Positions 5,081 to 35,996 of a DNA stretch of 64,000 nucleotides are shown piece by piece (positions within the stretch are counted from its first letter, which is position 1; each line of letters opens with the position of its first letter). Both the position numbers and the translations under genes were made by a program. A model generated the notes under the pieces. That model was not told the DNA's origin and did not search any database. It saw only the letters and a list, made by a program, of their open reading frames with translations. This stretch comes from Vulcanimicrobiota bacterium (GTDB lineage Bacteria; Vulcanimicrobiota; Xenobia; Xenobiales; QWHO01), in contig CAUJEN010000184.1 in NCBI GenBank assembly GCA_963169765.1, forward strand, positions 16,468-80,467, written 5' to 3'.

Positions 5081-6199
5081 TCAGCCGTGGCGTCGGGCCA
5101 GTCGATTGCGGGCGGCCGCCTGGATCAGACCTTCCTCGAGCTGGGGGTGGGGATAGGCCCTCTCGAACCCGGCGCGCAGACGGCGGGCGAACCCTTCGGC
5201 CCATTCGCGTCGCCGGGAGAGCTCCCGGCTCCCACGGATCGAGAATCCGGTCAGGTCGGTAGGCAGGTCGTCGGCTCCGAGCATCACCTCGCCGGCGATC
5301 AGGCCGGTCCAGCCTGTCAGGGTCTGGATCAGCACGCCCCGCCGGATCAGGTGGAGCTGGGCGGGCAGGATCGGGTCGACGTACAGCCCCCCGGCGGCGC
5401 CATAAGCGGTATCGATGTGGCTGAGGGGATCTTGCTGGGCCGAGCGGGGTGCGCCCAGCCGGAACTGGCCGGCGCCCGGTCCTTCCACATCGCGGAGCTC
5501 CCAGGCCAGATGACAACGTCGGATGGCAAAGGTCTGCTGCAGCCCCCTGCTGTGAGAGAGGACGGTGTAGGTGAGATATTTTCCGGGCCAGCTGAGCTGC
5601 CAGCGCGAGGCGCCGCTTTCTTCCCCGAACCAGGGCTCGATGACCTCTCCGTCGACCGTCAGCTTCATGGGAGCAAAACGGGCTTTCTCTTTGAGAAGCA
5701 AACTCTCAGGAAGCTGGCGCTTGAGCCAGCTGCCCCAGCCCAGGGCCCGTCTCGCCGTGATCCGGGTCTCCCGGCTTCCCCCCTGCCTGAGCTCGGCCCG
5801 GTCCGCGCTCAGGTACAGAATCTGCCCCCCGGATTCCAGGACCACCTCCGAACCCGGAAAGCCAAGCACGCTGTTGACCCCGATGGCCAGCTCCGACCAG
5901 GCGGGCTGATCCCCCGACTCGTCCAGGAGGCAGGTGAAAAAGCTTTGCAGCTGGTCGCTCGTCAGAGTTGTGCCGTCGTGCGCAAGGCTCAGAGCCCGCG
6001 GAGACGAGCGAACCTCACACCGGGTGGCTCCCGCCGCCACGGCCGACTGAACCCATTTGAGCGCGAAATAGCAGCGATCAGGAAGCTGGAAGCTGCGCAA
6101 CTTCCCCAGGGCGTGACGCCAGTCGAGCGTAAAGACTCCCGCCGAGTCCAGCGCTCCCTGTCCTCGCAGCTCCTGCAGCACCTGATCCAACTCGTCCAC
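5081..6199 (-). CDS. Hypothetical protein with degenerate GHKL/MutL-like ATPase N-terminal domain (predicted pseudo-ATPase)
   Basis: ALKWVQSAVAAGATRCEV resembles MutL/Hsp90 Bergerat N-box ELVENSLDAGATRIDI but lacks catalytic E/N/D; followed by DGTTL and G-rich GFPGSEVVLESGG segment; 6-bp gap to upstream gene. Confidence 0.35.
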   Translation of the reverse strand: MDELDQVLQELRGQGALDSAGVFTLDWRHALGKLRSFQLPDRCYFALKWVQSAVAAGATRCEVRSSPRALSLAHDGTTLTSDQLQSFFTCLLDESGDQPAWSELAIGVNSVLGFPGSEVVLESGGQILYLSADRAELRQGGSRETRITARRALGWGSWLKRQLPESLLLKEKARFAPMKLTVDGEVIEPWFGEESGASRWQLSWPGKYLTYTVLSHSRGLQQTFAIRRCHLAWELRDVEGPGAGQFRLGAPRSAQQDPLSHIDTAYGAAGGLYVDPILPAQLHLIRRGVLIQTLTGWTGLIAGEVMLGADDLPTDLTGFSIRGSRELSRRREWAEGFARRLRAGFERAYPHPQLEEGLIQAAARNRLARRHG

Positions 6200-6205
6200 A
6201 GGCCG

Positions 6206-7024
6206 TCACTCCGGCTCCCCTGTGGGAGGATAAGGACCCCCGCTCGCAGGCCGGCTCAGCACCAATCCCAACCCGCGCCAGCAGGCTTCCATCTCCCGGT
6301 GCGAGAGACTTCGCTTCCCATCCAGCGGATCGCCCACCACCAATCGTTCCGGGCTCACCTCCAGCACGGCCACGTAGTGATCGACGAAGGGCCCCAGGCG
6401 CACGACCGCGAGCGAATGGACCGGCAGCTCACTGGCCCGGGTGAAGCGGCGAAACTCGCACCGGACCTCGGGATGAAGCCGCGTCAGGCCCTCAGCCAGC
6501 TGATCGCAGGGTGTCCCCGTGGCCGGGCAGGTGCCGCATTCCAGCGCCAGAGCCCGCTCGTCTGCTTTCACCCCGAGGCCCTTGAGTGCCGTGACGGCAG
6601 CCGCCGGTCCGCAGGTGTAGCTGGTGCTCTGGCGGCAGACCTCGTCGCGGTCGAAGCTAGTCTGCAAAGCCTCGATCTGCGAGCGGGACAGGGCGGGGCT
6701 CAGGAAGGGATAGACTCCCGCGTAACCCGCCAGAATCACCGTGAGAATGACCACCGCCCTGCGGTTGCGAGCCGATGGCACTCGCGTGAGCGGCGCGATC
6801 AGCAGCACCGCGATCGAGAGAGCGAGCAGCACGAACTCGCGCCGACCGGCCATGAGGATCGTCCAGGGCGGCTCGAAGTCGGAGTTGGTCTGGCGCACCC
6901 AGCCGATGGTCAGGATGAGCGCCAGGGGCCCGAGATAGCCGGCCAGCCAGAACCGGGTCCGGCCCAGCCGGTAGGCCGCCAGAGCGCAGGCCAGGGTTGC
7001 CAGGGTCACGAGCAGCGCCAGCAT
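6206..7024 (-). CDS. Membrane protein with C-terminal peptidase C39-like (papain-fold, double-glycine-peptidase-like) domain
   Basis: 4 N-terminal TM helices then QSTSYTCGPAAAVTALKGLG (Cys motif of C39 family) and downstream His/Asp region VDHYVAVLEV...GDPLDG. Confidence 0.5.
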   Translation of the reverse strand: MLALLVTLATLACALAAYRLGRTRFWLAGYLGPLALILTIGWVRQTNSDFEPPWTILMAGRREFVLLALSIAVLLIAPLTRVPSARNRRAVVILTVILAGYAGVYPFLSPALSRSQIEALQTSFDRDEVCRQSTSYTCGPAAAVTALKGLGVKADERALALECGTCPATGTPCDQLAEGLTRLHPEVRCEFRRFTRASELPVHSLAVVRLGPFVDHYVAVLEVSPERLVVGDPLDGKRSLSHREMEACWRGLGLVLSRPASGGPYPPTGEPE

Positions 7025-7073
7025 GGTGGCAAAGTTGGCCAGAATCGTCGGTGAACCTCCACCCCACGGCCGA

Positions 7074-9422
7074 TTATTCGATCACCAGCAGCGACGCCTT
7101 GACCTGGTCGCGCCCGATGCGCTCGTCCACCTCGCGGCAGCGCTCGCCCAGCACCGGCGGCAGTCCGGGAGCCCGCGACCACTGCCTGGCCATGTCCAGC
7201 GTGCGGCGCAGGGCGCGCACCACGTCGCCCTCGTCCATGCCGGCCCGGTCGCGCACCTCCTCCCAACTCGCCCCCTCGGCCCAGGCCTCGGCCAGGCCCG
7301 AGAAGACCGGGTTGACCATGGCCGGCACCTCCACCTCGAAGCGCTTCTGCCAGCGCAGCACCGCCTCGGCTACCTTCTGCACCTCACCCACGGCCCGGCG
7401 GGCCGGTGTGGACGGAGCCAGCCGGATGCCCGGCACCTGGCGCGTGTCCTCGGTCAACAGTGCGGTCATCACCGCCGCCAGCTGGGCGGCGTTGAGGCGC
7501 TCGAGAATGCCCGAGCGGGCCACCTCGGTCAAGAGCACCACGTTGGTGCCGCGCAGGTAGGCGGCCAGCAGGCCGAGCTCGGTTGGCCTGTCGTCTTGCA
7601 TGTAGCCCAGCGCCTCGAGCAAGTCCTTAAGGCGGGTGAACTGCTTCCAGTAGGGCGTCTCCACCCGCCGAGCCAGCTTCCCCAGGTCGCCCTTCTCGCG
7701 GGTCAGCTCGGCCAGCATGGCGTGGTTGTGCCCGCAGGGACGCCGAACCGGGCACTCGTGGCAGGGGGTGCGCTCCATCATTCCCCGCACGTCTTGCTTC
7801 TGGTCCTTGAGCTGGGCGATGGCTTCCTTGAGGCCGCGATTTCCCGGGCGCATCCCCCGGCTCATGGCCTCGATCTGACGGTGCAGGCTGCGCTCCTTGT
7901 CCTTGAGCTTGTGATAGGCGGGAAGGTCGCCGGGACGCTCGGGGCAGAGCGGGCGCGACAGCTCCTCCACGCGCTTTGCCAGGCTCTGCGAGCGGGTGCC
8001 CAGCGAGCCCTTGACCCGCTCGGCCAGGAACTGGCCGAAGGAGCGCTCCACCAGCTGGCGACACTCTTCCAGCGAGTGGTGCTGCAACAAATTGAGCACC
8101 ATCCCGTAGCTGGGAGTGAAGCGCGACAGCAGGGGATCGGCCTCGGCCCGGGCCAGCTTGGCCGCCTCCTCGACTCGTTCCATGGGATGGTGCACCACCA
8201 CCACGTGGCCGACCGTGTCCATCCCGCGCCGGCCGGCTCGGCCCGACATCTGCAAAAACTCGCTGGCGGTCATGGGCCGGTGGCCCTCGTCGGAATACTT
8301 GCTGATGGCCGAGATGACGGTGGTGCGGGCGGGCATGTTGATGCCCGCGGCCAGGGTCTCGGTGGCGAACACGCACTTGATCAGGCCCTGCTGGAAGAGT
8401 CGCTCCACCAGCGACTTCCAGGGGGGGAGCAACCCGGCGTGGTGGGCCGCCAGGCCCTGGCGCAGGTAGGGGAGGTGGGGATGATCGATCAAGAAGGGGT
8501 TATCGCGCAGGAAGTCCTTGAGCGAGGCTTTGATGGCATCGGCCTCGGCCAGGGTCAGGGTGACCGCGCCCTGAGAGGCGCGCAGGGCCAGCTCGCACCC
8601 CCGGCGCGAGAAGACGAAGTAGATGGCCGGCAGCATCTCACGCTCGGCCAGGGCTCGCACCACGTTCTCAGGGCTGACCTTCTCGGGGCGGTCCTCCTTC
8701 TTGGGCTTGCGAAAGCCGTCTCGCTTGGGAGGGGGAGAGATCTGGCGCAGGGCCGGATTGAGCGAGCCCGACTCGCTCAGGAGCGGCTTGAGCGACTTGA
8801 AGTAGTAGTAGAACTTCAGGGGAACCGGGCGATAGTCGCTCTGGATCAGGCGGGTGGGGGCGTGGGTGGCCGAGATCCAGTCCACCAGGTCGGGGGCGTT
8901 GGCCACCGTAGCCGACAGAGCCACCAGCTGGATCTCGCGCGGGCAGTAGATGATCGACTCCTCCCACACGGTGCCCCGCTCGACGTCGTTCATGTAGTGG
9001 CATTCGTCCAGGATCACCGAGACCACGCCCTGCAGGTTGGCGTGCACATCGCCCAGGATGGTGCCATAGAGCATGTTGCGGAAGACCTCGGTGGTCATCA
9101 CCACGATTTGGGCATCGCGGCGCACCGAGATGTCCCCGGTCAACAGGCCCACCTGGTCTTCTCCGAACAGCTGCTGCAGGTCGTGGAACTTCTGGTTGGA
9201 GAGCGCCTTCAGGGGCGTGGTGTAGAAGCAGCGCAGCTGGCGCTGGTGGGCCCGGTGCAGAGCATACTCGGCGATGGCCGTCTTGCCCGAGCCGGTGGGA
9301 GCGCACACGACCACGTTCTCGCCGGCCGCAATGGACTCCATGGCCTCTACCTGGAAGTCGTCCAGAGGGAACGGAAAGAGGCGCGCGATGTCGGGCGAGG
9401 GCGCCCTGGGGGCTGCGGGCAT
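7074..9422 (-). CDS. Ski2-like DEAD/DEAH-box RNA helicase (HelY/Mtr4-like), start at ATG 9422 (MPAAPRAP...)
   Basis: Motif I CAPTGSGKT, motif II DECHY, motif III SAT, QxxGRAGRRG motif VI, C-terminal DSHCT-like region; track ORF extends to 10538 only by reading antisense through the neighbouring gene. Confidence 0.85.
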   Translation of the reverse strand: MPAAPRAPSPDIARLFPFPLDDFQVEAMESIAAGENVVVCAPTGSGKTAIAEYALHRAHQRQLRCFYTTPLKALSNQKFHDLQQLFGEDQVGLLTGDISVRRDAQIVVMTTEVFRNMLYGTILGDVHANLQGVVSVILDECHYMNDVERGTVWEESIIYCPREIQLVALSATVANAPDLVDWISATHAPTRLIQSDYRPVPLKFYYYFKSLKPLLSESGSLNPALRQISPPPKRDGFRKPKKEDRPEKVSPENVVRALAEREMLPAIYFVFSRRGCELALRASQGAVTLTLAEADAIKASLKDFLRDNPFLIDHPHLPYLRQGLAAHHAGLLPPWKSLVERLFQQGLIKCVFATETLAAGINMPARTTVISAISKYSDEGHRPMTASEFLQMSGRAGRRGMDTVGHVVVVHHPMERVEEAAKLARAEADPLLSRFTPSYGMVLNLLQHHSLEECRQLVERSFGQFLAERVKGSLGTRSQSLAKRVEELSRPLCPERPGDLPAYHKLKDKERSLHRQIEAMSRGMRPGNRGLKEAIAQLKDQKQDVRGMMERTPCHECPVRRPCGHNHAMLAELTREKGDLGKLARRVETPYWKQFTRLKDLLEALGYMQDDRPTELGLLAAYLRGTNVVLLTEVARSGILERLNAAQLAAVMTALLTEDTRQVPGIRLAPSTPARRAVGEVQKVAEAVLRWQKRFEVEVPAMVNPVFSGLAEAWAEGASWEEVRDRAGMDEGDVVRALRRTLDMARQWSRAPGLPPVLGERCREVDERIGRDQVKASLLVIE

Positions 9423-23763: not shown

Positions 23764-24882
23764 ATGCCGAGAAGTCTAAACCTCTTCCCTGAAAGGCCCC
23801 TGAAGTGGTATCCTGCTCAGGTGAAACCCATTGCGTCGTTTCAGTCTACCCTGCCCCAGGTGGCATTCCGACGCAAGTCCGAGCCGAAGGGGGAGGCGCC
23901 GGTCGAGACCAGTGCCAGCCGCATTCGCAAGCTGGAGGCCGAGCTGCAGCATTGCTACGGCACCTACATGTATTGCGAGGCGGCCGATTTTCAGAGCGCC
24001 GAGGAGCGAGCGACCTCGCGGCGCATGTCCGAGCGCATCGGCCAGATCTCCACCGAGCTGGCCCAGCTGCGTGGGGCCGGGGCGCTCAACCGCGAGAACG
24101 TGAAGGCCCAGGTGGAGGTGATGCTCGAGCGTCAGCCCCTGGCGCGGCTCGGTTCCAGGGCCTTCAAGGCGGTCTACCCCGCTTGCCGGCACACCGGCTA
24201 CGGGGTGGACGACCCGGCCGGACGGCTGCATTCGGCCGTGCGCCATGGCTTTCTGACTCAGGAGCAGGTGGACGAGAAGGTGATTCGGTCGGCCTCCCGA
24301 CGAAAACCCAGCGCGTCCGGCTCGGACGACGAGGTGCGCCAGGCCGCTGCCGAGGCACTCACCCGGGCCCTCCCTCGCGAGCTGGAGGGCCTCTTTCCCG
24401 ATTTGAAGACCTTTCTCGAATTCCCGACCCCGTCCCCTCTGGCCGAGGCCGTCAAAGGCCTGATCGCAGAGGGGCTGGTGGAGCTGCGATTGGAGGATGT
24501 CAACCGGGCCCGCCGCGTGATCTACGCCCCGGGCCAGTTGGGCCAGGCCGCGGAGCGCTATCGCGAGACCCCACAGGATAGCCTTCTGGGCACCATCGGG
24601 CAACTGCTCGACCAGAAGCTGCCCTACACCGAGGAGGAGCGTGAGCAGGCTCTGACCTGCGCCGCCACCAGTCTGGTCAAGAAAGAGCAGGGCGCAAAAG
24701 ACGACTGGTCGCGCCGCCGGTTCGAGGAGGACAAGCAGCGCTGGCTGCAGCGCGGCCTCACCGAAGAGCACCTGAAGGTGGCCCTGCTCGGAGGGCGGGC
24801 CCCGGCGGTCGGGGGATCGGTGGTCGAGACCCCGGACTGGATCGTCTTCGGGTCCAGCCGCGTGGCCCGAAAGAGCTCATGA
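23764..24882 (+). CDS. Hypothetical protein (373 aa), start at ATG 23764 (MPRSLNLF...)
   Basis: Protein-like downstream part of track ORF 23218..24882; upstream part is Gly/Ala-rich artefact. Confidence 0.45.
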   Translation: MPRSLNLFPERPLKWYPAQVKPIASFQSTLPQVAFRRKSEPKGEAPVETSASRIRKLEAELQHCYGTYMYCEAADFQSAEERATSRRMSERIGQISTELAQLRGAGALNRENVKAQVEVMLERQPLARLGSRAFKAVYPACRHTGYGVDDPAGRLHSAVRHGFLTQEQVDEKVIRSASRRKPSASGSDDEVRQAAAEALTRALPRELEGLFPDLKTFLEFPTPSPLAEAVKGLIAEGLVELRLEDVNRARRVIYAPGQLGQAAERYRETPQDSLLGTIGQLLDQKLPYTEEEREQALTCAATSLVKKEQGAKDDWSRRRFEEDKQRWLQRGLTEEHLKVALLGGRAPAVGGSVVETPDWIVFGSSRVARKSS

Positions 24883-25373
24883 AGATCAGGCTGGCTCTGG
24901 TTCTTCTGCTGGCCGCGCTGGCCCTGGCTGCGCCGGGAAAGCCCTTCGTGGACAAGAAAGCGGGCTACCAGCTGGTGCCCCCCGCCGACTGGAAGAGCTA
25001 CCCTGACAGGGCTGCTCAGATGAATGCCTCGTCGGTTTTCAAAGGGGTGGACCAGGGCGGCTTCGTGGCCAACATCAACGTCATGATGCAACCGGTCGAT
25101 AAACTTGACGAGTTCACCCGCATCACCCGCGAGCAGATCAAGTCGGCCAAAGCCACCATTGTCTCCGAGAAGGCCGTCAAGCTCGGCTCCGCGCCAGGTT
25201 ACCAGATGATCTGGAAGATGAGCATGCAGGGTCGCAAGCTGCAGTTTCACAGCACCTGGTTCGTAGCCCGGGGCAAGACCTATCTCTTCACAGGCACGTC
25301 GCTCGAGTCCAGGTGGAGCGGCGTCTCCAGGCTGTTCGCCCAGTCGGCGGCCACTTTCCAGCCGGTGCCCTGA
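24879..25373 (+). CDS. Secreted hypothetical protein (PsbP/DUF1795-like fold suggested)
   Basis: Signal peptide MKIRLALVLLLAALALAAPG; 4-bp overlap with preceding gene. Confidence 0.5.
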   Translation: MKIRLALVLLLAALALAAPGKPFVDKKAGYQLVPPADWKSYPDRAAQMNASSVFKGVDQGGFVANINVMMQPVDKLDEFTRITREQIKSAKATIVSEKAVKLGSAPGYQMIWKMSMQGRKLQFHSTWFVARGKTYLFTGTSLESRWSGVSRLFAQSAATFQPVP

Positions 25374-25374
25374 G

Positions 25375-25671
25375 ATGCAGATTTCAGCCCAGGACCTGGA
25401 CGAAGCCCTGAAGGACGCTCTCTTGCTCGATGTGCGTGAGAGCGACGAGATCGCAAGTCAGGGCACGCTGCCGGGAGCCCTGCACATCCCCCTCGGCCAG
25501 CTCGAAGGCCGTCTCCACGAGCTGCCCAGGGACAGGATCCTCATCACGGCTTGAAACGGCGGAGGTCGGGCCGCTCGGGCAGCGGCTCTCCTGGTGGAGA
25601 AAGGCCTTCGGGTCTCGGCGAGCTGCGCCCTCAAGCACTACCAGGGAGCGCGCGTCTTTCCCGGGCCCTGA
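25375..25671 (+). CDS. Single-domain rhodanese (sulfurtransferase) with in-frame TGA at the active-site Cys position (codon 60; 25552-25554): candidate selenoprotein (Sec) or pseudogene
   Basis: Translation MQISAQDLDEALKDALLLDVRESDEIASQGTLPGALHIPLGQLEGRLHELPRDRILITA-[TGA]-NGGGRAARAAALLVEKGLRV... matches GlpE-like topology with CxGxR active-site loop; hairpin GGGCCGC-ucgggca-GCGGCUC starts 13 nt after UGA. Confidence 0.5.
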
Positions 25672-25825
25672 GCCTCGGGCTTTCGGCTTGATGGCTCACG
25701 TGCCGCTCCTGGAGGATGGCACGGTTTGTGCCAGAGCTCGCAACTGGCACACGTGCCGCTCCTGCAGGATGGCACGACTTGCCCGGCTTCAGGGAACTTT
25801 CAAGCCCCGGAGCGATAATGCTCAT

Positions 25826-30613: not shown

Positions 30614-31150
30614 TTACGGGGCGCGCTCGACACGCCGAAGGAGCTCTTGCTGGCGCGCCTCCACCTTGAGCAACCCGCCGCACAGGTGATCGTTGCCCTG
30701 TGACAGGGTCTCGAAGGCCGACTCGGCGGCCGCCTCGTCCAGCGGAGAGAGGGCGCCCTCGAGCCGATCCAGTCCTTCGCGGAAGAGATCCACCCCGCGC
30801 ACCATCAAGTAGCGCACCTCGGGCACAAAGCTGCCCTCGGGGTCGGCCTGCTCCTCCACGAGCAAGAGCTCGAGGAGCTGGGGCACGGCCTGACCGGCGA
30901 ACTCCTCGAGCAGAGCGCGCAACTCGCTCAGGTAGCCGGGCACCTCCTCGAGGTTGTGATAGAGAAGCTCGTGCAGCACGTTCAAGTTGTGGGTCAGGAA
31001 GCGTTCTTGCGGCACCGGATATTCGCGCCCTTCCTCGAGCGAAAGGCCCGCCCGCGGCTCCTGGGGGGCGGCCTGCAGCAAGAGCGCGTTGCATTGAGGG
31101 CAATATTTCGAGCCTGCCGGAGGGCTGGCTCCGCAGCGCAGACACAGCAT
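30614..31150 (-). CDS. Zinc-ribbon hypothetical protein, last gene of FtsZ-like cassette
   Basis: N-term CLRCGASPPAGSKYCPQCN (CxxC...CxxC); start abuts stop of upstream giant gene (31151). Confidence 0.5.
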   Translation of the reverse strand: MLCLRCGASPPAGSKYCPQCNALLLQAAPQEPRAGLSLEEGREYPVPQERFLTHNLNVLHELLYHNLEEVPGYLSELRALLEEFAGQAVPQLLELLLVEEQADPEGSFVPEVRYLMVRGVDLFREGLDRLEGALSPLDEAAAESAFETLSQGNDHLCGGLLKVEARQQELLRRVERAP

Positions 31151-34100
31151 CTAGGACTTGCTCTGGGTGGCCGCCAGCAAGGCCAGCTTACCGTCCTCGC
31201 GTCTTCGGGTGAATTGCTCGGCCCGGGCCATCACCTCTTCGGCCTTCTGGCCGATGGCCTCGGGCCCCAGGGAGCGCACCAGAGGGGACTCCATCACATG
31301 CTGCACCTCGTCAGAGAGAACCCGCACCGTCATCATGTCCTCGAAGGGCAGCTCTGACTCGCTGGAGACCTTGCCCCACTTTTCACCGTAGGCCTCGCGC
31401 TTGTAGTGCTCGAGCAGGGCGCAGTAGGCGGCCATCTCCTGCTCGTCCTGGGTGGAGAGCACCGCGTCGCGCCGCTGCTTGACCAGCTTGTAGAGCTTCT
31501 CGCGGGTGGCCGTCCCGGTGGTCAGCTTGACCAGCATCATGTGCCGATCCCCCAGAGGGTGGGGGCGCATCTGGAAACCGTCGCGCTCCTGCCAGAGATA
31601 CTCGCCCCCCTTGAACTCGAGCACGTCGAACAGACAGCCGAGCACCCAGCACTCGTAGGCCTCCTCCAGAGAGCGCCGCTCTTCCTGGTTGAGCACCATC
31701 AGGTCGGGGAACTTCTTGTCGTTGCAGTCGATGTGCAGCGGCTCGCCGTTGGTATAGAGCTTGAGGTAGGAGCCGCGCAGATCGGTGAGGCGGGCCATGT
31801 AGTTGATGGGGAAGCCGCCCGCCTCCTGATAGAAGATCACCTCGCTCGACTCGGGGATGGGATAGAAGTTGAGCTTTCCGGTCACCTCGCGGGTGAGGTA
31901 GGCCTTGAGCTGGTTGAGGTAGCCGGTCAGCTCGGCGGCGTCGGACGGGCTCATGCCGGCCGCTGAGGGCAGTCCGCACATGGAGTGGATCTGCTCTTCG
32001 GGCAGCTGGAAGGTGCCGTGCAGGCCGCTTCTCGTGGCCCAGTAGGCCGAGCGGGAGTACATCTGGCGCAGGTGGTTGTTGCGTGTCTGCTCGTCCATCG
32101 TGGTGTAGAGTACCTTGACCACGTGAAAGTCGGTCTTCAGCCCGGAGAACAGGTTGCGCGACTCGGTCAAGAGGGCCCGCTTCCACTCCTCGGTGCGGCC
32201 CGCCGCGATGTCGGCCGCCAGGCCCGTGACGGCCCGCTCCAACCGCTTGAGCACGGCCTTGCTGACCGCCTGCACCGTCTCGGTGCCCTTGACGTAGGCC
32301 GGGTAGTACTTGCTCTCGATGTCGGTGGGCTCGTAGAGCACCAGCGCCTGGGGCTGAGGATCCTTCTGGCTGAAGTACTTGAACCCGCCCAGCAACTCGT
32401 TCTTGAGGCCCTCCAGATCGCGGGCCAGGGAGGTGAGCTGATCCACCATCCCTCCGCCCCGACGCCCGTCAGGACGCTCGCTGCCCTGGATGGCCCGGGC
32501 CAGCCGCTCGACCAGCTCGGCCCCCTCCTTGTAGACCCGGGCCTGCAGCTGACAGCGCAAAAGGCCGGGAGTGCGGCTATCGCCCACCAGCGACTCGAGG
32601 TAGCGCTCGGCCACGTAGGCCAGGATGATGCCCTTGCGCCCGTCCAGGTTGGAGCGGTTCTGGTAACGCCCCACTTCCTGCAGCCGGCGGGTGGCTTCTT
32701 TCTGGCGCCGGACCAGCACGTCCTGAATGTCTGTCTGCTTCTTCTGGAAGACCGTGACGAAGGAGCGCAACACCTCGACCGTCTCGTTCAAGACGGCCTC
32801 GGAGTACTTCAGGCTGTCGTGCTTCTGATCGACGAGCTGGAAGGCTTTCTTGCGGATGTCCTCAGTGGCCCGCTGCTCGAGCGTCGTCAGGTTGGCCCGG
32901 ATGGTGCGCGGGAAGTGGCCCCACTTCTCGGGCTCGGCTCCCAGCTCTTCAGCTTTGAGGCGCTTTTCTTGCTCGCCGAACTTCTCTTCCAGAAAGTCGC
33001 GCAGGGTCTGGCGCGGGCCGAGCTGCCCGCGCTCCACGCTGCGCAGCACCTCCTGCGACCACTTGCTCAGCTCGTCGAGCAGGCCCTGGTTGCGCCCCTT
33101 GTCGGGGTCGGCCAGGCCCCCCGGATCGAGCAGCGAGAAGAGGATCTCGTTCTTGCGCTTGGAGTCGTCCTCCTGAAGGTGCAGGGCGGGCAGGAAGTCT
33201 TCCTTGACGAAACGGGGCAGATCGGCCTGGTTGAAAGAGGCCTTGCTCTGGCCCGACCACAGGTCTACCACCTCGGTGGCCAGTTTGTAGGCGCAAGCGG
33301 TGGTGATGCGGGCGTGGGGCACCATGATGGTGGACATTCCGAAGGACTGGTAGCGCTGGATGAAGTTCTGCTTGAAGCGCGGATGGGCGTGCTCGTAGGT
33401 CTTGTTCATGTACTGGCGCAGGTTCACACGGGCGCTGCGCTTGTGGTCGGCGAACTCGCCGTGGGAGAAATCCTTGAAGATGGAGTCGGCCAGAAGCTCG
33501 AAGATCAGCTCCTGGCTGCCGGGCTGGCCGCCGGTGGCCTGGCCGGCGGCGTTCTGGTTGTCGAAGACATAGCAGTAGTCGAACGGGGGGAGGGGTACCC
33601 GGGCGGTGACTCCCAGCGACCACTCGGCGTCGAACGTGTGGCTGCCATACTTATAATAGTTCAGCTCCTTGAGCAGGGCGTAGGCGTTGGCCTTCATCTT
33701 CTCGTTGGTGATGGTGCCGAAGTGATCAGGGAAGACCAAAAACGAGCTCAGGGTGACGTTGCCCTCCTGGAACAGGTCTTTGATCATGAAGGCGGTGTCG
33801 AGCAACAGGCCGCTGCCGGTGCCGCCGGCGATGGAGGTGACCAGGTAGACGTTGGTGGGCTGGTTGAACTCGACCTGAGCCAGGATGCCCTGGTCCTTGA
33901 GGATGTTCGAGTGCATCATCCGCTCCATGGCGTGCGGATCGCGCACCCGGGTGTTGGCCTCGGTCACGGCCGCGCGGATGGTCTTGTAGTGGTGAAAGAA
34001 GGCCAGCCGGCTGTAGGCGCGGATCTGTCCCGCGCCCTCGTTCATCTGGCCCAGCGCGTTCAAGCCCGGGTACCACCACTTGTCGATGTGGGCGTTGTTG

Positions 34101-34390
34101 GGCTCCTTCAGGTTCTGGGTGATGACGGTGGTGTCGCCGATGGTGAGCATCAACCGCTCGACATCGGTCATGCGCACGAATTCGCGCACTTCCTTGCCCA
34201 GGATGTGCTTCTCGCTCTTGTCGGTATCCAGCCACAGGTAGGCCACGATGGGGAACTCCGACAAAGTGCCGTACTTCTCATAGAAACGCTTGCGCACCCG
34301 CAAGATGACATCGCCCCCGGTGCCCCCCAGCCCGATCAGGATGGTGGGACGGATGCGGATCAGGTCAGCCTGGGCGCCGGGAGTTTCCAT
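31151..34390 (-). CDS. Giant divergent FtsZ/tubulin-superfamily GTPase (FtsZl-1-like) with ~800-aa helical C-terminal extension
   Basis: N-terminal T1-loop-like ILIGLGGTGGDVI (cf. FtsZ GVGGGGxNA) and T4 tubulin signature-like SIAGGTGSG (cf. GGGTGSG) ~165 aa apart; 1079 aa; opposite-strand 812-aa ORF is artefact. Confidence 0.6.
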   Translation of the reverse strand: METPGAQADLIRIRPTILIGLGGTGGDVILRVRKRFYEKYGTLSEFPIVAYLWLDTDKSEKHILGKEVREFVRMTDVERLMLTIGDTTVITQNLKEPNNAHIDKWWYPGLNALGQMNEGAGQIRAYSRLAFFHHYKTIRAAVTEANTRVRDPHAMERMMHSNILKDQGILAQVEFNQPTNVYLVTSIAGGTGSGLLLDTAFMIKDLFQEGNVTLSSFLVFPDHFGTITNEKMKANAYALLKELNYYKYGSHTFDAEWSLGVTARVPLPPFDYCYVFDNQNAAGQATGGQPGSQELIFELLADSIFKDFSHGEFADHKRSARVNLRQYMNKTYEHAHPRFKQNFIQRYQSFGMSTIMVPHARITTACAYKLATEVVDLWSGQSKASFNQADLPRFVKEDFLPALHLQEDDSKRKNEILFSLLDPGGLADPDKGRNQGLLDELSKWSQEVLRSVERGQLGPRQTLRDFLEEKFGEQEKRLKAEELGAEPEKWGHFPRTIRANLTTLEQRATEDIRKKAFQLVDQKHDSLKYSEAVLNETVEVLRSFVTVFQKKQTDIQDVLVRRQKEATRRLQEVGRYQNRSNLDGRKGIILAYVAERYLESLVGDSRTPGLLRCQLQARVYKEGAELVERLARAIQGSERPDGRRGGGMVDQLTSLARDLEGLKNELLGGFKYFSQKDPQPQALVLYEPTDIESKYYPAYVKGTETVQAVSKAVLKRLERAVTGLAADIAAGRTEEWKRALLTESRNLFSGLKTDFHVVKVLYTTMDEQTRNNHLRQMYSRSAYWATRSGLHGTFQLPEEQIHSMCGLPSAAGMSPSDAAELTGYLNQLKAYLTREVTGKLNFYPIPESSEVIFYQEAGGFPINYMARLTDLRGSYLKLYTNGEPLHIDCNDKKFPDLMVLNQEERRSLEEAYECWVLGCLFDVLEFKGGEYLWQERDGFQMRPHPLGDRHMMLVKLTTGTATREKLYKLVKQRRDAVLSTQDEQEMAAYCALLEHYKREAYGEKWGKVSSESELPFEDMMTVRVLSDEVQHVMESPLVRSLGPEAIGQKAEEVMARAEQFTRRREDGKLALLAATQSKS

Positions 34391-35208
34391 CAGGCCCTGG
34401 TGAGCACCACACCGGCGCCGTAACCCGCGCCCAGCCCGGCCAGACAGCCCCCGCCCACCACCAGGTAGATCGCCACCTGCTTACCCCACAGAATCTTGGG
34501 GAACATGTAGAGCCCCGCCCCGCACAAGAGAACCAGGCCCAGCCCCAGCAGCACCAGCAAGTTGGAGTATCCCAGCGCGGTGGTGACCTCCATCCGCTTG
34601 ACTCGCAGCATGCGGGCAAAGAGACTGCGCCCGAAGAGCACATAGGCCAGCACCACGCCCGCGAGCACGAAGCCGATCAGAAGGCCCCACTCCCAGTTCT
34701 GGTTGGGTGCCCGGTCGCGCGGCGTGCTGAGGGTGCGCGAGCCCACGGTGGAGGGGTCGCCGGCCCGCCAGGCCGTATCGCTCAGAGGGATGACCACGTC
34801 CTTGCCCTTGACCTTGTGCAAGAAGACCAGTTCGTAAAGCACCGGATTGCTGGCTGAATCGGTGAAGGCCACGAAGCGCACGGTGGCCCGTCCGTTCTCG
34901 AGCGGAAATTTCACGTAGGGGGCATCTTCCTTGACCTCGTAGTCCACGCCGCCGGCACTCAGCACTTCATAATCCTGGATGAACGGGCTTGTCCCTTCGG
35001 CGTCCAGGTCGAGCCTCACCCCGATCCAGGCGGTGCCTTTGGGCATGAGGAAAGGCCGCCGGAACCTGTCCAGCACCCGCACGCTGCCCTCTTCCAGCTT
35101 GAAGGTCTCGGGAGGCTCGGGTTGGTCTACGTCCTGCGCCCGAGCGGGCGCCAGCAGCGCCAACAGCAGCAAGAGCGCCGCAATGACGCGGGGGTTGCGT
35201 TTGCTCAC
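34390..35208 (-). CDS. Secreted/membrane protein (signal peptide, ~170-aa extracytoplasmic domain, two C-terminal TM helices)
   Basis: MSKRNPRVIAALLLLLALLAPARA signal; TM WEWGLLIGFVLAGVVLAYVLF and LLVLLGLGLVLLCGAGLYMF; stop overlaps start of FtsZ-like gene. Confidence 0.55.
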   Translation of the reverse strand: MSKRNPRVIAALLLLLALLAPARAQDVDQPEPPETFKLEEGSVRVLDRFRRPFLMPKGTAWIGVRLDLDAEGTSPFIQDYEVLSAGGVDYEVKEDAPYVKFPLENGRATVRFVAFTDSASNPVLYELVFLHKVKGKDVVIPLSDTAWRAGDPSTVGSRTLSTPRDRAPNQNWEWGLLIGFVLAGVVLAYVLFGRSLFARMLRVKRMEVTTALGYSNLLVLLGLGLVLLCGAGLYMFPKILWGKQVAIYLVVGGGCLAGLGAGYGAGVVLTRA

Positions 35209-35228
35209 GCGTGAAAATTCGTCACCTG

Positions 35229-35996
35229 TCAGGGTGCTCCTTCCCGCGTCGGTCGGGCCGCGATGACGTAGTCGGCCCCGGCCGCCAGCCCTCCGCGTCG
35301 CTCCAGGTGGCGCAGGGCCCGCGCTCGCAGGTCTCTTTCCACTGCGCCCAGGGCTCGGGCTAGATTGGCCGGTTTCAGGCTCTCAATGGTTCGTCGGGTC
35401 AGGTCGAGCTCTTCCTCGACGAAGCGCCGGGCATACACGATGGGATAGAGGCGGCTCTCGCGCACCTCAAAGCCCGACCTGCGCAGGGCTTCCAGCGTCC
35501 AGGCCAGGGGATACTCCCGGTGGGGGCGCTGGCCCGCCAGGAGGTGGCAGGCGTCTCGGAGGCGGGCGATCTCCAGCACCAGCTTCTCATCCTCGCTGGA
35601 GGGCGGCTCGGGATAGGGCTCCAGACCGACCACGTAGAGCCGTTTGCCCACCAGGGGATGGAGCCGGCGAAACAGGTCATCCTGGCGGTAAGGGGCCCAG
35701 CGGTCCAGCGCGCCCAGCAGATAGTCGGCCACGACCGTGTCGAAGCGCTCGCCCTCGAGCAGGCCCGGCTCAGCCCAGTTCCCGGTGAGGAAGCGGTCGA
35801 AAGGGCGCAGCTTCGGGGCGAAGTCGGTGCGCAGCTGGCGGGCCCAGGTCGCGTCGCCGGTCACGCCGGTGAAGCTGGCCAGGGGCAGGCCCAGAAGCCA
35901 GGAGGCCGAGCCCCAGCCCGTGCCGGCATCCAGCACGTGACCCCACGGCTCGGCTCCTTGCAGCTCTGCGAGATAGGCAAAGAGCGGATCGGACAA
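35229..35996 (-). CDS. Class I SAM-dependent methyltransferase
   Basis: Motif I VLDAGTGWG, acidic motif II residue after hydrophobic strand (TVVADYLL); 20-bp gap to downstream membrane-protein gene. Confidence 0.65.
   Translation of the reverse strand: MSDPLFAYLAELQGAEPWGHVLDAGTGWGSASWLLGLPLASFTGVTGDATWARQLRTDFAPKLRPFDRFLTGNWAEPGLLEGERFDTVVADYLLGALDRWAPYRQDDLFRRLHPLVGKRLYVVGLEPYPEPPSSEDEKLVLEIARLRDACHLLAGQRPHREYPLAWTLEALRRSGFEVRESRLYPIVYARRFVEEELDLTRRTIESLKPANLARALGAVERDLRARALRHLERRGGLAAGADYVIAARPTREGAP

What the first reader, a model, noticed from the sequence alone, without database searches (positions are those of the whole stretch)
25375..25671. Rhodanese gene with in-frame TGA at the catalytic-cysteine position plus SECIS-like hairpin: candidate selenoprotein
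Reading from ATG 25375 gives a 98-codon GlpE-like single-domain rhodanese in which codon 60 is TGA (25552-25554). This is exactly where the active-site Cys of the CxGxR loop is expected (ILITA-U-NGGGRAARAAALL). The ORF track shows this gene only as fragments in two frames. A hairpin lies 13 nt downstream of the UGA. It has a 3-bp lower stem GGA/UCC, a 4-nt GGUC bulge, a 7-bp upper stem GGGCCGC/GCGGCUC (one G.U) and a 7-nt apical loop UCGGGCA containing GG. Its geometry is close to the E. coli fdhF-type bacterial SECIS. Rhodanese-related sulfurtransferases are a known but rare bacterial selenoprotein family. Alternatively this is a TGC/TGT-to-TGA pseudogene.
Basis: partly seen in the sequence, partly recalled or inferred. 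Interest (0 to 1): 0.7.

Follow-up and report, generated by a model that had tools for sequence, protein, structure and literature searches.

The report
Selenocysteine rhodanese gene with SECIS hairpin
This small gene in an uncultured Xenobia (Eremiobacterota) bacterium almost certainly encodes a rhodanese enzyme whose catalytic cysteine is replaced by selenocysteine, read from an in-frame UGA with the help of a conserved RNA hairpin; it belongs to an already known kind of bacterial selenoprotein and is mis-annotated in GenBank as a 59-residue fragment.

Summary
ATG 25375 to TGA 25669-71 is a 98-codon rhodanese ORF (Pfam PF00581, E 5e-12) with TGA 25552-54 at the catalytic-Cys column.

It is not a pseudogene or a sequencing error:
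- The sequence is identical in 11 assemblies.
- TGA is kept in three diverged Xenobia relatives.
- Codons after the TGA stay in frame and under purifying selection (dN/dS 0.14 against 0.17 upstream).

A codon-degenerate metagenome scan found at least 119 contigs of one family, ...TA-U-NGGGRAARAA...FCGL.DY. There are many full-length Cys-form orthologues.

The hairpin is real (25568-75/25581-88, loop CGGGC). Across 98 sequences its two wobble-wobble pairs covary with 99-100% pairing.

A second Cys, 24 residues after Sec, is conserved in 103 of 105 Sec forms and in the window.

Rhodanese selenoproteins with a UxxG motif are already catalogued. This is therefore a new member of a known kind, apparently the first from Xenobia, and it lacks the family's signal peptide.

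Two things are untested. I could not search this genome for selA, selB, selC and selD. Two sister lineages carry decayed copies.

The parts
25375..25671 (+). Coding sequence of a 98-residue single-domain rhodanese with selenocysteine at residue 60. The start abuts the stop of the upstream PsbP-like gene (TGA 25371-73), and there is no signal peptide.
   Evidence: Searches give the ORF and the Pfam PF00581 match across the TGA. One search gives 48-58% identity over residues 1-98 to the metagenome Sec/Cys family. Searches show purifying selection on both sides of the TGA.
25552..25554 (+). In-frame UGA, read as selenocysteine (U60), at the catalytic position of the active-site loop U-N-G-G-G-R.
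   Evidence: Identical in 11 assemblies and kept in relatives L002, L003 and L005. Aligned with the invariant Cys of homologues. TGA sits at this column in at least 119 metagenome contigs.
25568..25588 (+). SECIS-type hairpin: stem 25568-25575 paired with 25581-25588, apical loop CGGGC at 25576-25580. The family-conserved core is 25570-75 with 25581-86. The stem starts 13 nt and the loop 21 nt after the UGA.
   Evidence: -14 kcal/mol, z -2.84. Searches show covariation at wobble-wobble pairs 21:33 and 24:30 in 98 sequences. One search shows that codons 63-70 are nucleotide-invariant in four Xenobia lineages despite pS of about 0.45 elsewhere.
25624..25626 (+). Codon for Cys84 (U+24). This is the family-specific second cysteine, inferred to be the partner of Sec (selenenylsulfide or resolving Cys). 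It replaces the first Gly of the usual rhodanese 'GG..W' motif.
   Evidence: Cys at U+24 in 103 of 105 Sec forms; the same Cys is in nearly all full-length Cys forms; the column aligns with GG of ordinary rhodaneses; it is conserved in the window, L002 and L005.
24879..25373 (+). Context: upstream 164-aa PsbP-like gene with a signal/lipoprotein-like N-terminus. Its TGA stop lies 1 nt before the rhodanese ATG, so translational coupling or an operon is likely. The synteny is conserved in all Xenobia relatives.
   Evidence: PF01789 PsbP followed by the rhodanese gene in every locus.

Best explanation
The locus is a functional selenoprotein gene. During translation, UGA 25552-54 is recoded as selenocysteine. 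The hairpin 13-36 nt downstream (25568-25588, apical loop C-G-G-G-C) acts as a bacterial SECIS, which recruits SelB.GTP.Sec-tRNA(Sec) to the ribosome so that the UGA is not read as stop. This step is inferred from the known bacterial mechanism.

The product is a 98-residue single-domain rhodanese with Sec as the nucleophile of the active-site loop (U-N-G-G-G-R-A). A family-specific Cys lies 24 residues later. I infer that the Sec accepts sulfane sulfur or selenium, or a thiol, as an Se-S intermediate, and that Cys84 resolves this or traps it as a selenenylsulfide. That would make the protein a sulfur/selenium-transferase or a thiol-redox rhodanese.

The gene is a divergent, signal-peptide-less member of a widespread, mostly exported Sec/Cys rhodanese family. 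In the Sec forms the SECIS lies inside the codons for GRAARAA, and this largely fixes that peptide.

Shown here: the ORF, the domain, the Sec/Cys column, conservation of the UGA, selection downstream of it, hairpin covariation, and the second Cys.

Inferred: SelB-dependent decoding in this organism, the chemistry, and the role of Cys84.
For: 1. The ORF and domain span the TGA.
2. It is not an error: the sequence is identical in 11 independent assemblies.
3. TGA is otherwise a normal stop here, ending 26 of 43 long ORFs, including this gene and its upstream neighbour.
4. TGA is kept in relatives at 88%, 81% and 75% identity.
5. Codons 61-95 have no indels in the window, L002 and L005. dN/dS downstream is 0.069/0.511 (window vs L002) and 0.186/0.635 (window vs L005), against 0.12/0.705 and 0.17/0.739 upstream. 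The excess of synonymous change gives Fisher p = 3e-4 and 8e-3.
6. At least 119 metagenome contigs (107 distinct proteins) carry TGA in the same motif. In 104 of 107 the frame stays open for at least 30 codons after it.
7. Full-length Cys orthologues include one with the identical loop, C-NGGGRAARAA (P0015).
8. The hairpin covaries. Pair 21:33 is CG 73, UA 17, UG 5, GC 2, with 1 mismatch. Pair 24:30 is GC 77, CG 17, UA 4, with 0 mismatches. Both sides of both pairs are Ala wobble positions. The covariation score is 0.242 against 0.104 in shuffles (0 of 500 reach it), and slid controls give at most 0.109. RNAalifold independently predicts the same stem.
9. The loop is C-G-U/G-G-C throughout the family.
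10. Rhodanese selenoproteins with a UxxG motif are catalogued (PMC13188914, PMC9312934).
Against: - No selA, selB, selD or tRNA-Sec lies in the 64-kb window or in any related locus held. The rest of the genome could not be searched.
- Two sister lineages have damaged copies. L003 has a 16-nt insertion that frameshifts the C-terminus. L001 has a 1-nt deletion and has lost the Sec codon and hairpin. L002 vs L005 gives a downstream dN/dS of 0.67 (not significantly below 1). The gene may therefore be under weakening constraint in part of this clade.
- Stem positions at codon positions 1 and 2 pair automatically because Ala-Ala codons (GCN GCN) are self-complementary. Only the wobble pairs are informative.
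- No Rfam model matches.
- The Xenobia protein lacks the signal peptide that most of the family has.
- Neither the structure nor the U60-C84 distance could be modelled.
Confidence: 0.86

Rival explanations
1. Pseudogene: an ancestral TGC/TGT-to-TGA nonsense mutation killed a Cys-rhodanese, and what follows the stop is untranslated remnant.
For: GenBank calls only a 59-aa hypothetical protein. Sister lineages L001 and L003 carry frameshifts and deletions in this gene. L002 vs L005 downstream dN/dS is not significantly below 1.
Against: - The TGA predates lineages separated by dS of 0.5-0.7. Even so, the 38 downstream codons keep their frame, with no indels and dN/dS of 0.14-0.29, the same as upstream.
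- The same TGA occurs in at least 119 unrelated metagenome contigs that have intact downstream ORFs.
- A covarying hairpin sits at SECIS distance.
Confidence: 0.05
2. UGA read-through without selenocysteine: the hairpin stimulates near-cognate suppression (Trp or Cys inserted) or some non-canonical recoding, in a genome that lacks the Sec machinery.
For: The Sec machinery was not found in the sequence available. The papers searched give no report of Sec use in Eremiobacterota.
Against: - The UGA sits exactly at the catalytic Cys column.
- The family shows the classic Sec/Cys alternation.
- The hairpin has bacterial-SECIS placement, with G and G/U in the loop.
- Trp at a rhodanese nucleophile position would be inactive.
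- Nothing here points positively to a non-canonical mechanism.
Confidence: 0.05
3. The 59-residue N-terminal fragment is the functional product. The downstream sequence is conserved for another reason, such as an RNA element or regulation of the next gene.
For: The hairpin region is nucleotide-invariant in the Xenobia lineages. A 37-nt repeat pair follows the gene.
Against: - Downstream substitutions are concentrated at third codon positions of the rhodanese frame, which is a protein-coding pattern and not an RNA pattern.
- A rhodanese cut before its active-site loop has no catalytic residue.
- The Pfam domain and the family alignment continue across the stop to residue 96-98.
Confidence: 0.03
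4. Sequencing or assembly artefact at the TGA.
For: None found.
Against: The 330-nt sequence is identical in the window and in 10 independent contigs from different projects. The TGA is present in diverged relatives.
Confidence: 0.01

Closest known systems
Rhodanese-like domain selenoproteins with a UxxG motif ('rhodanese-related sulfurtransferase', forms 2 and 4 in the 2026 review PMC13188914; first reported in prokaryotic, Sargasso Sea and Olavius-symbiont selenoproteome surveys, PMC1088965 and PMC1976440)
   Same: A PF00581 single domain. Sec replaces the catalytic Cys. The motif is U-x-x-G (here U-N-G-G). The family was predicted from UGA, SECIS and Cys homologues. Function has not been determined experimentally.
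   Different: I could not retrieve the exemplar sequences (MBM9537886.1, MCY3690685.1) to test whether this is the same subfamily. The Sargasso form was assigned to COG2897, not to a PspE-like single domain. The Xenobia protein lacks the signal peptide. The conserved U-x23-C pair and the near-invariant NGGGRAARAA loop are features I saw here, not ones I found described.
E. coli fdhF / Moorella thermoacetica fdhA type bacterial SECIS (from my own knowledge of the literature)
   Same: A stem-loop inside the coding region immediately 3' of the UGA. The apical loop lies about 20 nt after the UGA and exposes G followed by U/G. A short GC-rich upper stem is the conserved part.
   Different: The loop is C-G-K-G-C rather than GGUC-type. 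No conserved bulged U and no lower stem. The conserved stem is only 6 bp (8 bp in the window). SelB binding is untested.
GlpE / PspE single-domain thiosulfate sulfurtransferases
   Same: A single rhodanese domain of about 100 residues with a six-residue active-site loop, C(U)-X4-R.
   Different: NCBIfam GlpE and PspE score 17.2 and 16.3 bits against cut-offs of 102. The loop is NGGGR. The 'GG..W' motif is replaced by 'C[GA][LM].[DEH][YW]', which carries a second Cys. The nucleophile is Sec.
NF041203 rhodanese_LYCAU (rhodanese-related (seleno)protein, 'form 3', CxU motif)
   Same: A rhodanese-domain selenoprotein family with an NCBIfam model.
   Different: It scores 19.6 bits (30-37 for other family members) against a cut-off of 115. 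Its Sec is in a CxU motif, not at the canonical Cys column followed by xxG.
Rhodanese domain of BpPRF persulfide dioxygenase-rhodanese fusion (PDB 5VE3) and of CoA-disulfide/persulfide reductases (3ICR, 3NTA)
   Same: These are the closest solved structures by sequence (E 3e-12 to 8e-10). The active-site loops align: TVCRAGGRSA with TA-U-NGGGRAA.
   Different: They are Cys enzymes fused to partner domains. They have no second Cys at the +24 position and no Sec.

Membership tests
Bacterial selenoprotein gene (SECIS-dependent UGA recoding) | In-frame UGA with the reading frame continuing to a later stop | tested here: met
   TGA at 25552-54, and the frame is open to TGA 25669-71.
Bacterial selenoprotein gene (SECIS-dependent UGA recoding) | The UGA aligns with Cys in homologues (Sec/Cys pair) | tested here: met
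   (invariant C60 column); about 90 full-length Cys orthologues, including P0015 with the identical loop C-NGGGRAARAA.
Bacterial selenoprotein gene (SECIS-dependent UGA recoding) | UGA and flanking protein sequence conserved in relatives; purifying selection downstream of the UGA | tested here: met
   (dN/dS 0.14-0.29 downstream, p = 3e-4 and 8e-3). (107 distinct family proteins, 104 with at least 30 open codons after the TGA).
Bacterial selenoprotein gene (SECIS-dependent UGA recoding) | Stem-loop roughly 16-37 nt after the UGA with G in the first loop positions (bSECISearch-type criteria, recalled from memory), supported by covariation | tested here: met
   (8-bp stem; loop CGGGC starts 21 nt after the UGA). 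(two wobble-wobble pairs 99-100% paired with 3-4 pair types; 0 of 500 shuffles reach the covariation score). bSECISearch itself was not run.
Bacterial selenoprotein gene (SECIS-dependent UGA recoding) | selA, selB, selD and tRNA-Sec present in the same genome | not testable with these tools
   None is in the 64-kb window or the related loci.
Bacterial selenoprotein gene (SECIS-dependent UGA recoding) | Selenium demonstrated in the protein | not testable with these tools
   Needs 75Se labelling or mass spectrometry.
Rhodanese homology domain (Pfam PF00581), catalytic type | Domain match above the gathering score, and an active-site loop C/U-X4-R at the canonical position | tested here: met
   (46.5 bits against 22.2, residues 4-78). 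The loop is U60-N-G-G-G-R65. One search aligns it with the catalytic loops of solved rhodanese domains.
Catalogued 'rhodanese-related sulfurtransferase' selenoproteins, UxxG forms 2 and 4 (PMC13188914) | PF00581 domain with Sec in a UxxG motif | tested here: met
   U-N-G-G.
Catalogued 'rhodanese-related sulfurtransferase' selenoproteins, UxxG forms 2 and 4 (PMC13188914) | Sequence-level orthology to the exemplars MBM9537886.1 and MCY3690685.1 | not tested
   The exemplar sequences could not be fetched. None of the accessions I looked up matched them.
NF041203 rhodanese_LYCAU selenoprotein (form 3, CxU) | Score at or above the curated cut-off (115 bits), and a CxU motif | tested here: not met
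   19.6 bits. The motif is A-U-N, not C-x-U.
GlpE / PspE thiosulfate sulfurtransferase equivalogs | Score at or above the curated cut-off (102 bits) | tested here: not met
   17.2 and 16.3 bits.
Exported two-residue (U/C ...
   (48-58% identity over residues 1-98; C84 present).
Exported two-residue (U/C ...
   The window ORF starts at the mature-domain position. There is no in-frame start between the upstream stop (TAG 25264-66) and ATG 25375. In contrast, 80 of 92 family loci have a hydrophobic N-terminal run, and the full-length proteins have signal peptides.

The most novel reading that the evidence does not exclude
This may not be one of the catalogued rhodanese selenoprotein forms. It could instead be a distinct, uncurated 'U/C-x23-C' redox rhodanese family that no NCBIfam model reaches. 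In that family the SECIS hairpin is written into, and freezes, the active-site loop peptide GGGRAARAA. The Xenobia gene would then be a cytoplasmic, signal-less offshoot and the first evidence that Eremiobacterota (class Xenobia) decode selenocysteine.

A more extreme reading is that the UGA is recoded in a genome without canonical SelA/SelB. My data do not strictly exclude it, but I put it at about 3-5%.
Probability: 0.3. Interest if true: 0.45.

Novelty: new member of a known kind. Interest (0 to 1): 0.35.

Why it matters
- Annotation: GenBank lists the gene as a 59-aa hypothetical protein (MCE7872602.1), and one JGI relative is labelled an ArsR regulator. About a quarter of the best database hits in this family are similar truncated fragments.
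- Taxonomy: the gene implies that at least some Xenobia use the 21st amino acid. I found no paper reporting this for Eremiobacterota.
- Family level: the data give a clean natural example of an RNA signal constraining a catalytic loop. Sec forms are nearly invariant at NGGGRAARAA, while Cys forms vary. They also point to a conserved Sec...Cys pair that suggests redox chemistry, not plain sulfur transfer.

None of this overturns current understanding. Sec-rhodaneses have been known from computational surveys since 2004-2005.

Tried and rejected
1. The genome-contig scan with an alignment of the Xenobia proteins chose very common peptide patterns (LLDVRE..E). It found no Xenobia genome and used the only scan, so the Sec machinery could not be pursued there.
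The U60-C84 distance is therefore untested.
3. Rfam found nothing at gathering threshold in the window and only noise at E up to 10 around the hairpin.
4. ARAGORN found no tRNA-Sec in the window or in 38 related or family loci.
5. Neighbour clustering across 119 family loci found no conserved neighbouring gene, so there is no operon clue to function.
6. Two scans of the window for other TGA-bridged coding ORFs found no second selenoprotein candidate.
7. Literature searches for Eremiobacterota plus selenocysteine, and for 'bacterium CPR1', found nothing.
8. I ran no further search on SelA or SelB. Only the best 120 hits are listed, so a Xenobia orthologue would almost certainly not appear.
9. 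TGA reassignment (genetic code 4 or 25) is rejected: TGA ends 26 of 43 long ORFs here.

Full report
**What is in the sequence.**
From ATG 25375 the + strand reads 59 sense codons, then TGA (25552-54), then 38 more sense codons, then TGA (25669-71). The ATG lies 1 nt after the TGA stop of a 164-aa PsbP-like gene. No in-frame start exists between the upstream stop (TAG 25264-66) and this ATG.

With Cys in place of the internal stop, the 98-residue product matches Pfam Rhodanese. The match is E 5.2e-12, 46.5 bits against a cut-off of 22.2, and covers residues 4-78, so it spans the stop. In alignments with Cys-type rhodaneses the stop falls on the one invariant Cys of the active-site loop. The closest solved structures are catalytic rhodanese domains whose loop TVCRAGGRSA aligns with TA-U-NGGGRAA.

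**Organism and annotation.**
The 59-residue N-terminal fragment is in GenBank as MCE7872602.1, 'hypothetical protein DYH09_19775 [bacterium CPR1]'. A relative comes from 'Candidatus Xenobia bacterium'. The window has 66% G+C. TGA is its commonest ordinary stop, ending 26 of 43 long ORFs, so the genetic code is standard.

**Error or pseudogene?**
The 330-nt gene sequence is identical in the window and in 10 independent contigs, so it is not an assembly error.

Three diverged relatives were all called as 59-aa ORFs, which means they have the same TGA. They are L003 (88% identity), L002 (81%) and L005 (75%). In the window, L002 and L005 the 38 downstream codons have no indels, and substitutions are mostly synonymous. 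Nei-Gojobori values are below.

| Comparison | dN/dS downstream (codons 61-95) | dN/dS upstream |
|---|---|---|
| window vs L002 | 0.069/0.511 | 0.12/0.705 |
| window vs L005 | 0.186/0.635 | 0.17/0.739 |

The excess of synonymous change downstream is significant (Fisher p = 3e-4 and 8e-3). It remains significant when the hairpin codons are left out (p = 3e-3 and 9e-3). A stop older than these splits would have left neutral decay, so the downstream part is translated in these lineages.

The picture is not uniform. L002 vs L005 gives 0.161/0.24 downstream, which is not significant. L003 has a 16-nt insertion that frameshifts the C-terminus. L001 (Xenobia AMXMBFR33) has a 1-nt deletion near the start and a 91-nt deletion relative to L003 that removes the Sec codon and the hairpin. 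The gene is therefore decaying in one sublineage.

**A large family.**

Nearly all encode the same protein...(F/L)LDVREP.E.EELGT..GY.NIP...LE.RL.ELPKD..I.TA-U-NGGGRAARAA..L...G...GFCGL.DY.G.K..P. There are 107 distinct proteins, and 104 stay open for at least 30 codons after the TGA. The window protein aligns to them over residues 1-98 at 48-58% identity.

A protein search with one family member gave 1004 hits. Among the best 120, 30 are fragments ending ...IITA or ...VITA, which are truncated Sec forms. About 90 are full-length Cys forms of 105-185 aa with signal peptides. Their active-site loop is TA-C-N[HR][GA]VRA.., and P0015 has the identical C-NGGGRAARAA. This is the classic Sec/Cys alternation of a selenoprotein family.

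A second cysteine, 24 residues after U/C, is present in 103 of 105 Sec forms, in nearly all Cys forms, and in the window (C84, 25624-26). It replaces the first Gly of the usual rhodanese 'GG..W' motif.

No conserved neighbouring gene was found. No NCBIfam model reaches its cut-off. NF041203 scores 19.6 against 115, and GlpE and PspE score 17 and 16 against 102.

**The hairpin.**
In the window, 25568-75 pairs with 25581-88 (8 bp) around the loop CGGGC. The stem-loop alone folds at -14 kcal/mol with z = -2.84. The wider 69-nt context is not exceptional (z = -0.37).

Most stem positions are first and second positions of Ala codons (GCN GCN / GCN GCN). These are self-complementary whatever the selection, so they prove nothing. 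The informative pairs are wobble against wobble, numbered with U of the UGA as position 1.

| Pair | Counts in 98 distinct sequences |
|---|---|
| 21:33 | CG 73, UA 17, UG 5, GC 2, 1 mismatch |
| 24:30 | GC 77, CG 17, UA 4, 0 mismatches |

The covariation score is 0.242 against 0.104 +/- 0.008 in shuffles, and 0 of 500 shuffles reach it. Sliding the 3' partners by 1-3 columns gives at most 0.109. RNAalifold independently predicts the same stem.

The loop is C-G-U-G-C in 89% of sequences and C-G-G-G-C in 10%, which includes the Xenobia clade. Within Xenobia, codons 63-70 are nucleotide-invariant at eight four-fold sites, although pS is about 0.45 elsewhere. The only change in the stem is U25587 to C, which turns a G.U pair into G-C.

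The stem starts 13 nt and the loop 21 nt after the UGA. From what I recall of bacterial SECIS rules, this placement and the G-G/U in the loop fit an fdhF-type element. I did not run bSECISearch, and Rfam has no matching model.

**Mechanism.**
The best-supported reading is canonical bacterial Sec insertion. The hairpin tethers SelB.GTP.Sec-tRNA(Sec) so that UGA60 is decoded as Sec. This gives a rhodanese with a selenolate nucleophile in the U-N-G-G-G-R loop.

The conserved Cys84 suggests a selenenylsulfide or resolving step. That points to a redox or persulfide/selenide-handling role rather than simple thiosulfate:cyanide transfer. This part is inference.

Most family members are exported. The Xenobia protein has no signal peptide and is probably translationally coupled to the upstream PsbP-like gene.

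In Sec forms the peptide GGGRAARAA is nearly invariant, while Cys forms vary there. This is consistent with the SECIS constraining the protein sequence.

**What remains untested.**
I could not examine the rest of this genome for selA, selB, selC and selD. None is in the window or the related loci, and the single genome scan was wasted on generic rhodaneses. The structure could not be modelled. I could not compare the protein with the review's exemplar accessions.

**Comparison with what is known, and verdict.**
Rhodanese-domain selenoproteins are catalogued in five forms, and two of them have a UxxG motif (PMC13188914 and PMC9312934). They were reported in the Sargasso Sea and Olavius-symbiont surveys.

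This gene fits that kind (PF00581, U-N-G-G). It is best described as a new member from a phylum with no reported Sec use in the papers I could search. The finding is correct and well supported, but it is not surprising to a specialist.

Noticed in passing
window 25692-25728 and 25745-25781: Two copies of a 37-nt direct repeat (89% identical, spacing 53 nt) lie in the intergenic region just after the rhodanese stop. Each contains an imperfect palindrome CGTGCC-N11-GGCACG. Relatives L001 and L003 appear to have a single, shorter copy (GGAGGATGGCAC). No terminator-like or promoter-like site was called there. Function unknown.
   Followed up: partly
L001 9954-10177; L003 2032-2350: Sister Xenobia lineages carry damaged copies of the gene. 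L003 has a 16-nt insertion that looks like a partial duplication of AAGGCCTTCGGGTCT and frameshifts the C-terminus. L001 has a 1-nt deletion at codon 3 and a 91-nt deletion relative to L003 that removes the Sec codon and SECIS yet restores the original frame (net -75 nt relative to the window). This could reflect loss of Sec decoding in that sublineage.
   Followed up: partly
family loci L098-L216 and proteins P0011-P0131: Sec forms are almost invariant at U-NGGGRAARAA. Cys forms of the same family vary (C-N[HR][GA]VRA[GA][RK]AA). The SECIS stem is built from the Ala codons of this peptide. A few Cys forms keep NGGGRA(A/S)RAA, which may mark recent Sec-to-Cys conversions.
   Followed up: partly
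P0002 (L003/L004), P0001, P0103: Database annotation of truncated Sec forms is inconsistent. JGI names the 59-aa fragment P0002 'ArsR family transcriptional regulator'. GenBank names others 'hypothetical protein' or 'rhodanese-like domain-containing protein'.
   Followed up: no
window 31151-34480 (- strand), with 30614-31150 and 34390-35382: A 1079-aa protein with a Pfam Tubulin_2 (PF13809) hit is flanked by small genes without Pfam hits. The arrangement is conserved in the Xenobia relatives L001 and L008.
   Followed up: no
window 5081-7081 (- strand): Two long coding-like segments (291 aa and 374 aa) lie in the same frame, separated only by TGA 6206-6208. The second has no ATG near its start (a Val codon at position 3 could be a GTG start). 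This is probably two adjacent genes. It did not pass my TGA-bridge filters.
   Followed up: no
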